Origin: Pelagomonas calceolata
Taxonomy: Eukaryota
Assembly (NCBI GenBank): GCA_918797485.1
Contig: CAKKNE010000001.1
Location: forward strand, 372,001 to 436,000
Direction: 5' to 3'
DNA: 64,000 nt
A program made the translations under genes and the position numbers. Below are positions 36,506 to 39,858 of this stretch, piece by piece. The notes under the pieces were generated by a model. The model was not told the origin of the DNA and ran no database searches. It worked only from the letters and a program-made list of their open reading frames with translations. Position 1 is the stretch's first letter. Each line of letters opens with the position of its first letter.

Positions 36506-39004
36506 TCAACAGTATTTTAGTTTGGCTCGGAGTTTTTCGAGGCGCTCCTCGCCGTCGTTGTCCGGGTTGCCCGCTTGGATGTACTTCTCGGTGAACTCGA
36601 TGGCGCCGGGGATGTCGTTCTTCTTTTCGAGTAAATCGCTCAAGTTCCAGTACTTTATAGCAGTCGGCCCAAGTTCGATCGCCTTCCTATACATCTTTTC
36701 TGCACCGTCGTAGTCCTTGCGCACGTTCTCCAACACGAGGCCGAGATTGGAGTGCGCCGCCGCGTGCTTCGGGTCGAGCGCGATGCACCGCGTGTACGGC
36801 TCGTACGAGGATTCACAGGTCCCATTCTGCCCGTAGTACGCCCACCCGAGCTCGAACCACGCCTCGCTATGGTTCGCGTCCAGCGCGACGCAGTTCTGGA
36901 ACGCTGTGATGGCCTCGGGCCACTTCTTCTCTTCTTTCCGCGCCAGGCCCTCCGAGTACCACGCCGCCGGCGACTTGCCCGCCGCCGCCGCGCGTCGCCG
37001 CTTCTCCTCTTCGGCCTTGGCTTCGGCGGCGCGAAGCTTGCCTTCCGCCTCCGCGGCCCTCGCTTCGGCCGCGCGGAGCTTCTCCCCCGCGTCGGCCGCG
37101 GCCGCGGCCTCGCGCTTTCGTTCCTGCTCTTCGGCCGCGCGCGCGGCCTTGGCCTCGCTCCGCCGCTGCTCTGCGACGACCTTGTCGCGGGGAGCCGGCT
37201 CCACGCCTCGCTCGAGGCATCGCAGCAGGGTGTAAATCGCATGCGACCGCCCGTTGATCTTCTTTATTCTGTCGAACGTCACTTGAAGCTCGCCGACCAC
37301 GCCCGACGGCACGTGTTTAAAGTTAAAGTAGATGCACCGCCAGCCCGACGGCTTGGGCTCGCCGAAGCTGTCTTTCACGCGAACCACCTCGAGATCACCG
37401 CCGAGCTGCGAGAGCTGTCTTACGCCTTCATGCAGCGCAGGCACGCTCGTAAACAACGCCGCCGCCCGCTCGATGTCGACAATGCGGCGCACGTCGCCGT
37501 CGTATTCGCGACTCGCCTTCTCGACGCAGCGCGCCCGCGCCTTTGTGTCGGCCGCCATGTACGTGCCGCCCGCCCGCGTCACGACGGCTCGAAGCTCGTC
37601 GTGAAAATCATCGCGCACGCTCTTCGCGAGGCTCTGAAGCTCTTCGACGGACTTGCACGACTCCGGTTGCCGCGGAGTCTCCGCGCGCTTCTTCGCGAGC
37701 GTCGCGCACAATTCCAGCATCTCGCCGCAGCGCGGATCGCTCGCGTAATTCTCCCACGCCTCGTCGTACGCGTCGGCGTCACCCCGCTGCGCCTCGGCGA
37801 GCCGCGCTCGAAGCGTGTCGAGGTCCCGCTCGTCCGTACTGAGTAGCTCGTCGAGCTTCGTTTCGAGCGCGTGCATCGTCGGGCGTTCTGCCGCGACGCC
37901 GAAGCACTCGACGGCCCAATCCGCCAGCTCGGGCACGACGGGCGTTTCGGGCCTGGGAAGCCGTTCGCCGCGATTAATCGCGCTGTGGATTTGATGCTGC
38001 GACTTGCCGCTCCACGGCTTTTTGCGTTCCAGGAGCTCCCACGCAAGCACGCCGTAGGCGTACGCGTCGGCGCTCGTGCCAACGCGCGCGTCATCCGAGA
38101 GCACTTCAGGTGCAATGTACATGCAGGTACCAACGACCGCCGTCATCTTCGTCAGCGTGTGCGTCAGCTCCTTGCTGATGCCAAAGTCCGCGATCTTGCA
38201 CCGAATTATGCCGCTGCCCTCGGCTACCAACACGTTGCTCGGCTTCAGGTCGCGGTGCATGATGCGGTTCGCGTGGAGGTGCGCCAGTCCCGCGGCGACG
38301 TCGCGAGCCACGTGCAGAATGTCCTGGTGGACGAGCTGCCCGCGCTTGCTCTGGTGGATCACGTCGTCGAGGTCGTAGGCCATCAACTCGGTAATGACGT
38401 GGATGCCGGCGCCCGGTATATCGGACACGCCGTGGACGATGAGCACGTTCTGATGGGGAAAGTCGGCCATGACCGCTAGCTCCCGAACCATGTCGTTCTG
38501 GATCTCCGCGCCGAGGCCAGCGACGCGCGACCGCTTCGCGGCGATTCTACGAGACCTCGTCATCGCGCGACCGAACGTCCCCTGCTGATTCCACGTGCCC
38601 CTGTACACGATCGAAAAGCCGCCTTCGCCAATCGGCTCGGACTCGAGGACCACGTCGTCCGCCGCGATTCGGCGTACCGTCGGCGACAGCGTCGACGAGC
38701 CCATCCCTCGGCCGCTGCCGTCGGTCCGCGTGTCCAGCGAACCGGTGGACGACGTGACGTCCTTGAGCTTGGCCAGCTTCTGGCGCAGGAGCTTCTGTTT
38801 GATCTTCGGGACCTTGAGATCGTCGAAAATCTCCTTCAGGTCCTCGTCCGACGCCGACTCGAGGTACTCGCCGTCTAAGCCGTTTTCGCGCAGCTGCTTC
38901 GCAATCTCCACGAACGACGGGCCGATGCCCTCGACGAGCTGCTGCACGCTGTCGGCGCTGAGCTTGTGGAGCCGATGCTGCATCGACGACGCGCCGCCGC
39001 CCAT
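36506..39004 (-). CDS. SAM + TKL protein kinase + RelA/SpoT-like synthetase domain + TPR protein
   Basis: MGGGASS; SAM (LRENGLDGEYL); GEGGFS, HRDLKPSN, DFG, APE; K..R..EK, DIER, RVKDSF..PSGWR..FN, ELQV; C-terminal TPRs. Confidence 0.85.
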   Translation of the reverse strand: MGGGASSMQHRLHKLSADSVQQLVEGIGPSFVEIAKQLRENGLDGEYLESASDEDLKEIFDDLKVPKIKQKLLRQKLAKLKDVTSSTGSLDTRTDGSGRGMGSSTLSPTVRRIAADDVVLESEPIGEGGFSIVYRGTWNQQGTFGRAMTRSRRIAAKRSRVAGLGAEIQNDMVRELAVMADFPHQNVLIVHGVSDIPGAGIHVITELMAYDLDDVIHQSKRGQLVHQDILHVARDVAAGLAHLHANRIMHRDLKPSNVLVAEGSGIIRCKIADFGISKELTHTLTKMTAVVGTCMYIAPEVLSDDARVGTSADAYAYGVLAWELLERKKPWSGKSQHQIHSAINRGERLPRPETPVVPELADWAVECFGVAAERPTMHALETKLDELLSTDERDLDTLRARLAEAQRGDADAYDEAWENYASDPRCGEMLELCATLAKKRAETPRQPESCKSVEELQSLAKSVRDDFHDELRAVVTRAGGTYMAADTKARARCVEKASREYDGDVRRIVDIERAAALFTSVPALHEGVRQLSQLGGDLEVVRVKDSFGEPKPSGWRCIYFNFKHVPSGVVGELQVTFDRIKKINGRSHAIYTLLRCLERGVEPAPRDKVVAEQRRSEAKAARAAEEQERKREAAAAADAGEKLRAAEARAAEAEGKLRAAEAKAEEEKRRRAAAAGKSPAAWYSEGLARKEEKKWPEAITAFQNCVALDANHSEAWFELGWAYYGQNGTCESSYEPYTRCIALDPKHAAAHSNLGLVLENVRKDYDGAEKMYRKAIELGPTAIKYWNLSDLLEKKNDIPGAIEFTEKYIQAGNPDNDGEERLEKLRAKLKYC

Positions 39005-39327
39005 TTTTTCAGCAGCTCAGAGGAGCTGTGGTATAAGCTTGTGGTGTACCAAGCCGCAGTGGTGGTTGTCGCTGACGCGTGGAGAAGGCTACCGTGTCCC
39101 TCCTACGCCATCATTTTGGAGACAGGAAGGCTGCCCGCGCGTGTTTGGGCTCCGTGGAGTGCCGTATGCAGCGCGGCCTCTCCCGACCAGGGCAAGGCCC
39201 ACTTGCGCTGACAAACGCATGACGCCTAGCTTAGACCTCCTAGGGGTGTGCAAGAAAACAGGGAGGGATAGATCGGCGGAGCGGCAGTTCGAGGGAAAAC
39301 ACAAACAGGTCCGCGGTCCGGGCCCGG

Positions 39328-39858
39328 TCGGGGAAGAGGCCGTACTGTAAGGTGAGGCCTTTTTAGTAAATTCACATTAGTCTTATTTCATAGTTTGGCT
39401 CGGAGTTTTGCGAGGCGCTGCTCGCAATTCGCCCGGCCGAGGCGGACGCACTCTTCCACGAGCTTGATGGCGCCGGGGATGTCGTTCTTCTGGTTTTCGA
39501 GGATAAGACTCAAGTTCCAGCACGCATACGCCTTCGGCTCGAGCTCGATCGCCTTCCTGTAATGCCTCTCTGCACCGTCGTAGTCCTTGCGCGCGTACTG
39601 CAACACGCTGCCGAGGTTGCCGTGCGCCAGCGCGTTCTTCGGGTCGAGCGCGATGCACCGCGTGTACGGCTCGTACGAGGCCTCGCAGTTTTTCGACCCG
39701 TTCTGCAAGTAGTACGATTGCCCGAGCCAGAACCACGCCTTGCTATGGTTCGCGTCCAGCGCGACGCAGTTCTGAAACGCTTTGATGGCCTCGGGCCACT
39801 TCTTCTCCCCGTTCCTTCCCAGCGCCAGGCCCTCCGAGTACCACGCCGCCGGCGACTT
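39328..39858. repeat. Duplicate of 36462-36976 (TPR module plus last 12 codons of the exonuclease gene)
   Basis: TCGGGGAAGAGGCCGTA.TGTAAGGTGAGGCCTTTTTA and long identical TPR-coding tracts in both places. Confidence 0.92.

What the first reader, a model, noticed from the sequence alone, without database searches (positions are those of the whole stretch)
36506..39858. TPR paralogues differ mainly at ligand-facing helix-A positions
Seen: scaffold segments are essentially identical in DNA (KSPAAWYSEGLA, FQNCVALDANHS, YEPYTRCIALDPK, KDYDGAE, NDIPGAI). Helix A differs: SEAWFELGWAYYG vs SKAWFWLGQSYYL; AAAHSNLGLVLEN vs ALAHGNLGSVLQY; AIKYWNLSDLLEK vs AYACWNLSLILEN. The changes fall mostly at TPR positions 2,5,6,9,12,13. 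Known: these positions line the concave peptide-binding groove. Inference: diversifying selection or targeted variation of a recognition surface, as in immune receptors.
Basis: partly seen in the sequence, partly recalled or inferred. Interest (0 to 1): 0.82.

Follow-up and report, generated by a model that had tools for sequence, protein, structure and literature searches.

The report
Hypervariable TPR sensors on alarmone enzymes
Two neighbouring genes of a marine alga join a domain shaped like a bacterial alarmone-making enzyme to a protein-binding repeat module whose groove residues change faster than its silent sites, and they are likely immune sensors wired directly to an effector, without the switch domain that known receptors of this kind carry.

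Summary
Genes A (kinase + RelA/SpoT-like domain + TPR) and B (RelA/SpoT-like domain + TPR) share a four-repeat TPR cassette. Groove positions differ in 13 of 23 codons against 22 of 111 elsewhere (p=6e-4), but only in repeats 2-3. Repeat 1 is nearly identical, repeat 4 and the cap differ throughout, and only 13 of 41 differences are at groove sites. About 120 environmental relatives show the same pattern: groove entropy 2.0-2.8 bits, outer helix B 0.6-1.1. The cassette is fused to RING, caspase, Ulp1, MLKL-like and kinase domains. Both window genes carry a small-alarmone-synthetase-like domain (fold shown for B; Tas1 is the best PDB sequence hit for A). There is no NB-ARC/NACHT domain and no intron. 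Best reading: NLR-like sensor-effector proteins without the NTPase, diversified by point selection and likely gene conversion. Ligand, enzyme activity and immune role are untested. Some mosaic database records are probably assembly chimeras.

The parts
36506..39004 (-). Gene A, 832 aa, intronless: MGGGAS N-terminus, SAM-like region, kinase, RelA/SpoT-like synthetase, coiled linker, TPR cassette
   Evidence: expressed in stranded raw RNA with no splice joints
38765..38977 (-). SAM-like helical region of A (about residues 10-80), weak call
   Evidence: SAM_Ste50p E=0.059, below the Pfam cut-off
37853..38641 (-). Protein kinase domain of A (residues 122-384) with RIAAKR, HRDLKPSN, DFG and APE motifs
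   Evidence: PF07714 E=5.5e-43; motif positions
37190..37687 (-). RelA/SpoT-like (small alarmone synthetase-like) domain of A, about residues 440-605
   Evidence: best PDB sequence hits Tas1 E=0.0044 and YwaC E=0.15; K, R, E, K, D, R, G, W, E, Q columns shared with B
36506..36976 (-). TPR cassette of A: repeats 1-4 and capping helix (residues 677-832)
36827..36868 (-). A repeat 2 helix A; hypervariable positions 2, 6, 9, 12, 13
36722..36763 (-). A repeat 3 helix A; hypervariable positions 2, 5, 9, 12, 13
36623..36661 (-). A repeat 4 helix A; hypervariable positions 2, 9, 13
39388..41352 (-). Gene B, 654 aa, intronless: MGAGAS N-terminus, helical region, RelA/SpoT-like synthetase, coil, an unassigned region, TPR cassette
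40468..40980 (-). RelA/SpoT-like synthetase domain of B (about residues 125-295)
   Evidence: model pLDDT 94; top ten VIA hits all RSH/SAS, Z 8.6-12.9; Foldseek E about 1e-5; profile hit to Tas1 E=1.3e-4
39883..40155 (-). Unassigned region of B between the coil and the TPR cassette (about residues 400-490)
   Evidence: no Pfam family at E<=0.5; not folded
39388..39858 (-). TPR cassette of B (residues 499-654)
39703..39744 (-). B repeat 2 helix A
39592..39633 (-). B repeat 3 helix A
39490..39531 (-). B repeat 4 helix A
39328..39371 (+). Copy of the 3' end of the convergent neighbour gene (original at 36462-36505), left at the A/B junction by the tandem duplication
   Evidence: the neighbour's C-terminus is intact in 14 of 15 cluster records

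Best explanation
Genes A and B are expressed, tandem members of an algal gene family in which a four-repeat TPR cassette under diversifying selection at its groove is fused to interchangeable N-terminal domains, here a small-alarmone-synthetase-like domain (plus a kinase in A), and they likely act as intracellular immune sensors wired directly to an effector. Shown: the groove register, the excess of amino-acid change at groove sites, the synthetase fold of B's domain, kept catalytic-motif residues, transcription, and the absence of introns and of an NB-ARC/NACHT domain. Inferred: new specificities arise by point substitution at helix-A groove codons and are spread by recombination or gene conversion across the 19-44 nt identical scaffold runs. 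A fast-evolving foreign protein, probably viral, would bind the groove and relieve autoinhibition or drive clustering at a membrane (MGxxxS myristoylation-like N-termini). The synthetase would then pyrophosphorylate nucleotides or tRNA, as Tas1 and toxSAS do, to stop growth or kill the infected cell, or make a second messenger.
For: Groove enrichment between A and B. In the family, 72, 147 and 87 distinct repeat-2, -3 and -4 units (90% clusters) have groove entropy 2.46, 2.78 and 2.03 bits against 0.56, 1.13 and 0.80 on outer helix B; unrelated TPR proteins give 3.22 against 1.97, so the contrast is sharper than the generic TPR pattern. Omega is 3.39 against 0.31 after dropping indel-adjacent sites (p=1e-4), and 4.8 when only helix-A codons are used, so locally older segments do not explain it; outer helix B gives 0.28. 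B shares repeat 1 with A (98% nt) but repeat-4 helix B with L002 (0 of 51 nt differ, against 14 of 51 for A-B); MaxChi p=3e-4. Of 138 family records with an N-terminal part, 48 are RING/Sina-type, 33 B-type, 29 helical, 18 A-type synthetase, 2 Ulp1, 1 caspase and 7 other (records are redundant). The helical class scores 0.93 to clusters in which 22-26% of members carry MLKL_N. The synthetase fold is supported. Of 50 longer synthetase relatives (picked from 150 listed), 24 carry another Pfam domain, among them LRR (7), DUF285 (4), ankyrin (2, one with TIR), HEAT and WD40. Precedent for groove selection in candidate immune TPRs: PMC4986451 and PMC3341825 (passages).
Against: No ligand, activity or infection data. 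The codon tests rest on four cassettes, one pair (L002) from a metagenome contig; on that pair alone omega is 2.3, p=0.09. With the a priori six positions omega is 1.4 (not significant); with the five positions from PMC1261162 it is 1.75, p=0.047. High GC3 (0.83-0.90), recombination and multi-base codon changes can inflate omega, and the M2a omega of 33 shows this. Gene B is mostly uniform in wild samples: 28 of 32 distinct B-type records keep the repeat-2 groove and 18 of 32 keep all three groove strings. P0120 is gene A carrying B's 2-residue insertion, which the raw reads do not show, so some mosaic records are assembly chimeras. The MLKL link comes from the Atlas only; Pfam and PDB sequence searches did not find it. 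A's synthetase departs from four columns that are nearly invariant in B's relatives. Both genes are transcribed in ordinary culture.
Confidence: 0.55

Rival explanations
1. The groove is under diversifying selection, but the ligands are not pathogen proteins: the cassettes are adaptors re-specialised after each domain swap for different host clients, or serve in self/non-self or mating recognition.
For: Each N-terminal class may need a different partner. Several classes are uniform in the wild: all 6 P0014-class records share both groove strings, and most B records keep the repeat-2 groove. Both genes are expressed in culture.
Against: One RING class has 15 repeat-2 and 17 repeat-3 groove strings among 29 records with N-termini at least 85% alike; the gene A class has 4 among 6. 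The partner domains (caspase, MLKL-like, Tas1-like, RING) are typical of conflict systems (established knowledge).
Confidence: 0.22
2. There is no positive selection: groove positions are the least constrained in any TPR, and gene conversion homogenises the scaffold, which lowers dS and mimics omega>1.
For: PMC1261162 (passages) shows positions 2,5,9,12,13,33,34 are the most variable in all TPRs. Unrelated TPRs here show the same ranking. The a priori set gives omega 1.4, not significant. Conversion is likely.
Against: Relaxed constraint caps omega at 1. Synonymous divergence next to the groove codons is not raised (pS 0.17 in non-groove helix A against 0.29 in helix B). The helix-A-only model still gives omega 4.8. 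Exposed outer positions are far more conserved than in unrelated TPRs (mean pairwise identity 0.66-0.84 against 0.42) while the groove is nearly as diverse in repeats 2-3 (0.27 against 0.20).
Confidence: 0.13
3. A targeted or somatic diversifier (template-driven conversion within a clone, or DGR-like mutagenesis) rewrites the groove codons.
For: 9 of the 13 groove changes between A and B are multi-base codon changes. Identical scaffold runs flank each variable helix.
Against: No A-B joints and no TPR indels were listed in raw RNA from four runs of one culture sample, 6-12% of each run read (variant tables were cut to the best-supported rows). Independent DNA is identical over 37186-39666. The changes involve all four bases. 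No reverse transcriptase was evident among window ORFs of 250 aa or more (by eye only).
Confidence: 0.05
4. The family-wide modularity is mostly an artefact of short-read assembly across identical scaffold runs; only A and B are real.
For: P0120 is a probable chimera. Most relatives lie on contigs of 1-4 kb. Contigs of the organism's own DNA run break inside the cassettes.
Against: Chimerism shuffles helices but cannot invent 52 repeat-2 and 55 repeat-3 groove strings. RING-TPR and helical-TPR proteins also lie on contigs of 18-93 kb (P0010, P0023, P0030, P0034, P0274). A and B themselves have unlike N-termini on a confirmed locus.
Confidence: 0.05

Closest known systems
Fungal NLRs with TPR repeats (e.g. 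Podospora Pa_2_10340; PMC4986451, passages read)
   Same: C-terminal TPR with positively selected sites on the concave face; combinatorial N-terminal effector domains; repeat number variation
   Different: No NB-ARC/NACHT here. The cassette has four distinct repeat types plus a cap, conserved between genes rather than within one. The effector is an alarmone-synthetase-like domain. The host is an alga.
Ectocarpus NB-ARC-TPR and ROCO-LRR candidate receptors (PMC3341825, passages read)
   Same: Chlorophyll-c algal lineage, repeats under diversifying selection, proposed immune role
   Different: There each repeat is an exon and shuffling is by exons; here the genes are intronless and lack NB-ARC and ROC-COR domains.
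Tas1/Apk1 (p)ppApp synthetase and small alarmone synthetases (PDB 6ox6, 6fgk; PMC10083569, passages read)
   Same: Fold (Z 11.8-12.9) and synthetase motif residues; Tas1 is the best PDB sequence hit
   Different: Eukaryotic, fused to a TPR cassette; no immunity protein identified; substrate unknown; Z-scores do not separate Tas1 from non-toxic SAS.
CapRel fused toxSAS antiphage system (PDB 7ztb; PMC9712102, abstract and passages read)
   Same: One polypeptide joining an RSH-fold domain to a C-terminal part; in CapRel that part senses a viral protein
   Different: The C-terminal part here is a TPR groove. The CapRel sensor's name (pseudo-zinc-binding domain) is recalled and was not found by my text search. 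tRNA activity is untested.
Plastid RSH enzymes of diatoms and algae (PMC6881373, passages read)
   Same: Algal RSH-fold synthetases; TPR fusions are noted there for some green-algal RSH4
   Different: No HD hydrolase, TGS or ACT domain by Pfam; MGxxxS starts instead of plastid targeting (by inspection); below the Pfam RelA_SpoT threshold.

Membership tests
TPR domain | 34-residue helix-turn-helix repeats with the W4/L7/G8/A20/Y24/A27/P32 pattern | tested here: met
   Pfam TPR_1, TPR_2, TPR_11 above cut-off; alignment to CTPR
TPR domain | Positions 2,5,6,9,12,13 face the peptide-binding groove | tested here: inconclusive
   Taken from PMC1261162 (passages) and the register; my only model covering the TPR had pLDDT 50.6, so the sites were not mapped on a reliable model
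NLR/STAND receptors (fungal NLR, Ectocarpus NB-ARC-TPR) | Central NB-ARC/NACHT NTPase | tested here: not met
   No such Pfam family in A or B; no P-loop in A or B; 2 of 266 family records match the P-loop pattern and both are RING-TPR by Pfam
NLR/STAND receptors (fungal NLR, Ectocarpus NB-ARC-TPR) | C-terminal repeats positively selected on the concave face | tested here: met
   (four cassettes); weaker on the fixed six-position set
NLR/STAND receptors (fungal NLR, Ectocarpus NB-ARC-TPR) | Interchangeable N-terminal effector domains | tested here: met
   some records may be chimeric
Ectocarpus exon-shuffled receptors | One repeat per exon | tested here: not met
   Continuous ORFs; no splice joints in raw RNA
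RelA/SpoT homologue synthetase (SAS) | Synthetase fold | tested here: met
   B domain. A domain: sequence only
RelA/SpoT homologue synthetase (SAS) | Motif residues (basic ATP-binding helix, D..R, G-aromatic loop, E.Q) | tested here: met
   Aligned to Tas1, YwaC and RelP; conserved in 64-67 of 67 rows; the motif roles are recalled
RelA/SpoT homologue synthetase (SAS) | Pfam RelA_SpoT (PF04607) match | tested here: not met
   No hit for A or B at E<=10; 5 of 50 relatives hit it at E<=1e-4
RelA/SpoT homologue synthetase (SAS) | Pyrophosphotransferase activity and product | not testable with these tools
   needs an enzyme assay
toxSAS / Tas1 / CapRel | Toxicity neutralised by an antitoxin gene or a fused domain | not testable with these tools
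   needs expression tests; PADLOC gave only generic kinase hits for A and none for B
Long plastid RSH | HD hydrolase and TGS/ACT domains | tested here: not met
   none in the Pfam scan of A or B
MLKL/HeLo-like executioner domain (family relatives, not the window genes) | MLKL_N four-helix bundle | tested here: inconclusive
   Atlas 0.93; no Pfam or PDB sequence hit; not folded

The most novel reading that the evidence does not exclude
A marine alga has an NLR-like immune repertoire without the NTPase: hypervariable TPR grooves, reshuffled by gene conversion, detect viral proteins and directly switch on a Tas1/toxSAS-like alarmone synthetase that drains ATP or blocks tRNA to abort infection. 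This would be a eukaryotic counterpart of CapRel, and part of a wide unannotated family of synthetases fused to LRR, ankyrin, HEAT and WD40 repeats.
Probability: 0.3. Interest if true: 0.9.

Novelty: new variant of a known kind. Interest (0 to 1): 0.72.

Why it matters
How single-celled marine algae recognise their viruses is largely open. This locus gives a concrete, testable receptor family with named specificity residues and a candidate output. If the synthetase is toxic, alarmone or tRNA pyrophosphorylation would be added to the cell-death effectors that eukaryotes share with bacterial antiphage defence. The selected groove positions are also a natural library of TPR specificities. Groove selection in immune-type TPRs is itself known from fungi and brown algae; the new parts are the missing NTPase, the alarmone-synthetase-like effector and the intronless cassette exchange.

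Tried and rejected
No whole genome was held, so genomic copies could not be counted; no other family record lay on a multi-megabase contig. The metagenome DNA scan gave only 3 loci and the viral scan none, which limited codon tests to four cassettes; L001 was left out as near-identical to B and L003 because it lacks repeat 2. The 36 longer hits were unrelated kinase-TPR proteins at 28-44% identity and were used only as controls. A single-sequence fold of A residues 390-832 failed (pLDDT 50.6; no Foldseek match at E<=0.001). The second read lay was meant to list paralogue variants in the TPR, but its 40 rows were taken by other regions. A regex extraction of repeats fixes some columns, so it was redone with HMMs seeded from those units; the pattern held. 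A test for uneven synonymous divergence along A-B alone was not significant (5 of 60 against 8 of 50, p=0.25), so the conversion evidence needs L002. I considered a mobile cassette with target-site duplication and preferred tandem duplication plus inversion, because the neighbour's C-terminus is native. Small ORFs at 42405-42918 have no Pfam hit. Three look-ups in earlier findings returned nothing. Literature: searches naming Pelagomonas or Aureococcus with TPR terms gave 0 papers; searches listed nothing on such fusions, judged from titles and abstract starts. No supplements were read, and closed journals are not covered. No complex prediction was run.
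Full report
Setting. The window is eukaryotic. A light-harvesting gene at 45841-46473 matches fucoxanthin-chlorophyll proteins best, and environmental RNA holders are marine or subsurface metatranscriptomes. I take it to be a pelagophyte, probably Pelagomonas, from recall; no tool named it. No whole genome was held. The finding covers the 3' ends of two tandem minus-strand genes: A (36506-39004, 832 aa) and B (39388-41352, 654 aa). Both are transcribed in stranded raw RNA without splice joints. A contig from an independent DNA run spans 37186-39666 with no difference.

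The observation. All quoted peptides are present. The cassette is four TPRs of distinct types plus a capping helix, and the register agrees with Pfam and CTPR. Positions 2,5,6,9,12,13 are the ligand contacts in HOP, and 2,5,9,12,13,33,34 are the most variable in all TPRs (PMC1261162, passages). Between A and B, 41 of 151 aligned codons differ in amino acid. Groove codons differ in 13 of 23 against 22 of 111 other repeat codons (p=6e-4). The signal sits in repeats 2-3 (9 of 12 against 9 of 57); repeat 4 shows none (2 of 5 against 12 of 26), and repeat 1 is 98% identical outside its loop. So the enrichment is real, but 'mainly' holds only for the three quoted helices (12 of 16).

The family. Searching with B's cassette gave 80 hits, of which I counted 51 as the same family, 66 shorter hits all treated as family, and 36 longer hits that are unrelated kinase-TPR proteins. 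The 29 non-family hits and these 36 served as controls; I call them bacterial-looking from names and domains only. After HMM extraction and clustering at 90%, 72, 147 and 87 units of types 2, 3 and 4 have groove entropy 2.46, 2.78 and 2.03 bits against 0.56, 1.13 and 0.80 at outer helix-B positions. The 396 control units give 3.22 against 1.97. The family has kept its outer surface nearly fixed while the groove of repeats 2-3 is close to saturation. Repeat-3 number varies, and whole cassettes are doubled in some records (80 records '234', 26 '2334', 7 '234234', among others).

Selection. Pairwise counting gives groove omega 1.9 (bootstrap 0.85-4.2) for all repeats and 2.8 (1.05-11) for repeats 2-3. 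My own MG94 fixed-site models used four cassettes (A, B and the two in L002). On the six fixed positions omega is 1.4 against 0.27-0.35 elsewhere: the classes differ (p about 1e-9), but 1.4 is not significantly above 1. With hypervariable sites defined from family units less than 85% like the test units, omega is 3.3 (p=1e-4) and 5.7 for A-B. Dropping indel-adjacent sites gives 3.39; using helix-A codons only gives 4.8; outer helix B gives 0.28; the five literature positions give 1.75 (p=0.047); the L002 pair alone gives 2.3 (p=0.09) (F3x4, the most conservative of three frequency models). M2a beats M1a (p=0.003) with an implausible omega of 33, a sign of multi-base changes or recombination. 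I put diversifying selection at about 0.8.

Recombination. B sides with A over repeats 1-2 and with L002 at repeat 4 (MaxChi p=3e-4; 0 of 51 against 14 of 51 differences in repeat-4 helix B). Records nearly identical to B over residues 1-498 carry replaced TPR blocks (P0087, P0088, P0091, P0108, P0109, P0111). Records within about 1-3% of A in the synthetase differ at 14-27% of TPR residues (P0119, P0012, P0122). Two cautions: P0120 is A with B's insertion, unseen in raw reads and probably an assembly chimera; and 28 of 32 distinct B-type records (the window's own included) keep the repeat-2 groove. No A-B joints were seen in raw RNA from one culture sample, so there is no sign of somatic shuffling at that depth.

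What the cassette is attached to. A has a kinase. Both genes have a domain that Pfam misses. For A, the best PDB sequence hit is Tas1 (E=0.0044), then YwaC. For B, a search found 1712 relatives at E<=0.001; a 67-row alignment (65 of the 150 listed, chosen as shorter ones, plus A and B) hits Tas1 at 1.3e-4 and folds at pLDDT 94. Its top ten structural matches are all RelA/SpoT enzymes, Z 8.6-12.9, including Tas1 and CapRel; the best viral-library matches are phage or unnamed proteins, several annotated RelA/SpoT. The motif residues are kept in both genes, although A departs at four columns. Tas1 kills by turning ATP into (p)ppApp (PMC10083569, passages); toxSAS act on tRNA in antiphage immunity (PMC11245113, search listing; PMC9712102, abstract and passages). 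Of 50 longer relatives, 24 carry other domains, mostly repeats such as LRR, DUF285, ankyrin, HEAT and WD40; 3 show only RelA_SpoT and 23 nothing. Elsewhere in the TPR family the N-terminus is RING/Sina, caspase, Ulp1, synthetase plus ankyrin, or a helical domain resembling MLKL_N by the Atlas only. Many members start with MGxxxS/A/T or MGQC, a myristoylation-like pattern (recalled, untested).

Mechanism. Shown: architecture, expression, groove selection, synthetase fold. Inferred: a foreign ligand binds the groove, the protein is released or clustered, and the effector acts; specificities spread by conversion across 19-44 nt identical runs. I give this 0.55. Rivals: selection for non-pathogen partners (0.22), relaxed constraint with conversion (0.13), targeted mutagenesis (0.05), assembly artefact (0.05).

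Comparison and novelty. It works like fungal TPR-NLRs and Ectocarpus NB-ARC-TPR proteins (PMC4986451, PMC3341825, passages), but it is not an NLR: there is no NTPase, and no exon-per-repeat structure. It is also unlike plastid RSH enzymes, although TPR fusions to green-algal RSH4 are on record (PMC6881373, passages). My ten searches of the open library found no description of this family; supplements and closed journals were not seen. Verdict: new variant of a known kind, interest 0.72.

Noticed in passing
L001:1-3242 against window 31531-41429: A wild haplotype has the tail of the WD40 gene at 31531-33102 (PLRG1/Prp46-like, name recalled) directly upstream of B, and a second 65-bp copy of that tail between B and A. 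The window has a copy of the other neighbour's tail there. This fits a tandem duplication that took both flanking tails, plus an inversion of the block.
   Followed up: partly
reads laid on window 37164-37619, 37962-38645, 38874-39101: A paralogue of gene A about 80% identical (kinase + synthetase, P0018-like) is read mostly from the opposite strand in three RNA runs of one sample, 40-125 deep at the listed sites against at most 8 on the sense side: possible antisense transcription of a synthetase gene.
   Followed up: no
window 41430-43050: A 1.6-kb stretch of lower GC (0.53) upstream of B that is absent from L001; its small ORFs have no Pfam hit.
   Followed up: partly
P0332, P0531, P0168, P0061: B-like synthetase paralogues end in what looks like an intron-broken WD40 repeat instead of TPR (by eye; Pfam finds nothing), and P0168 has a weak WD40 hit before the TPR cassette, so the repeat type may be swapped too.
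   Followed up: partly
L002:1850-1870 and L003:1210-1230 (approximate): Two other family loci share about 18 bases after the stop codon and then run into unrelated gene-like sequence.
   Followed up: no
L001:2435-3211; P0119, P0122, P0123, P0125: Gene A's upstream and kinase region is more divergent among wild records (93% nt; 7-12% aa in the kinase) than its synthetase (1-3%).
   Followed up: no
P0523 and P0221: A relative of the convergent neighbour gene and a TPR fragment with different groove residues both lie on a contig of 64,345 bases; if it is the same contig, it is another allele of this locus.
   Followed up: no
window 22238-23137: Tandem array with a 100-nt period, inner copies 96-98% alike.
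   Followed up: no
window 57875-58846: 84-nt tandem repeat inside an 876-aa ORF, each unit with an IQ-like motif (label recalled).
   Followed up: no
window 9057-11243: 728-aa ORF with an internal duplication of about 890 nt spacing, 78-86% alike.
   Followed up: no
window 4774-5580 and 17549-18412: Two U-box-like ORFs with related N-terminal motifs (by eye).
   Followed up: no
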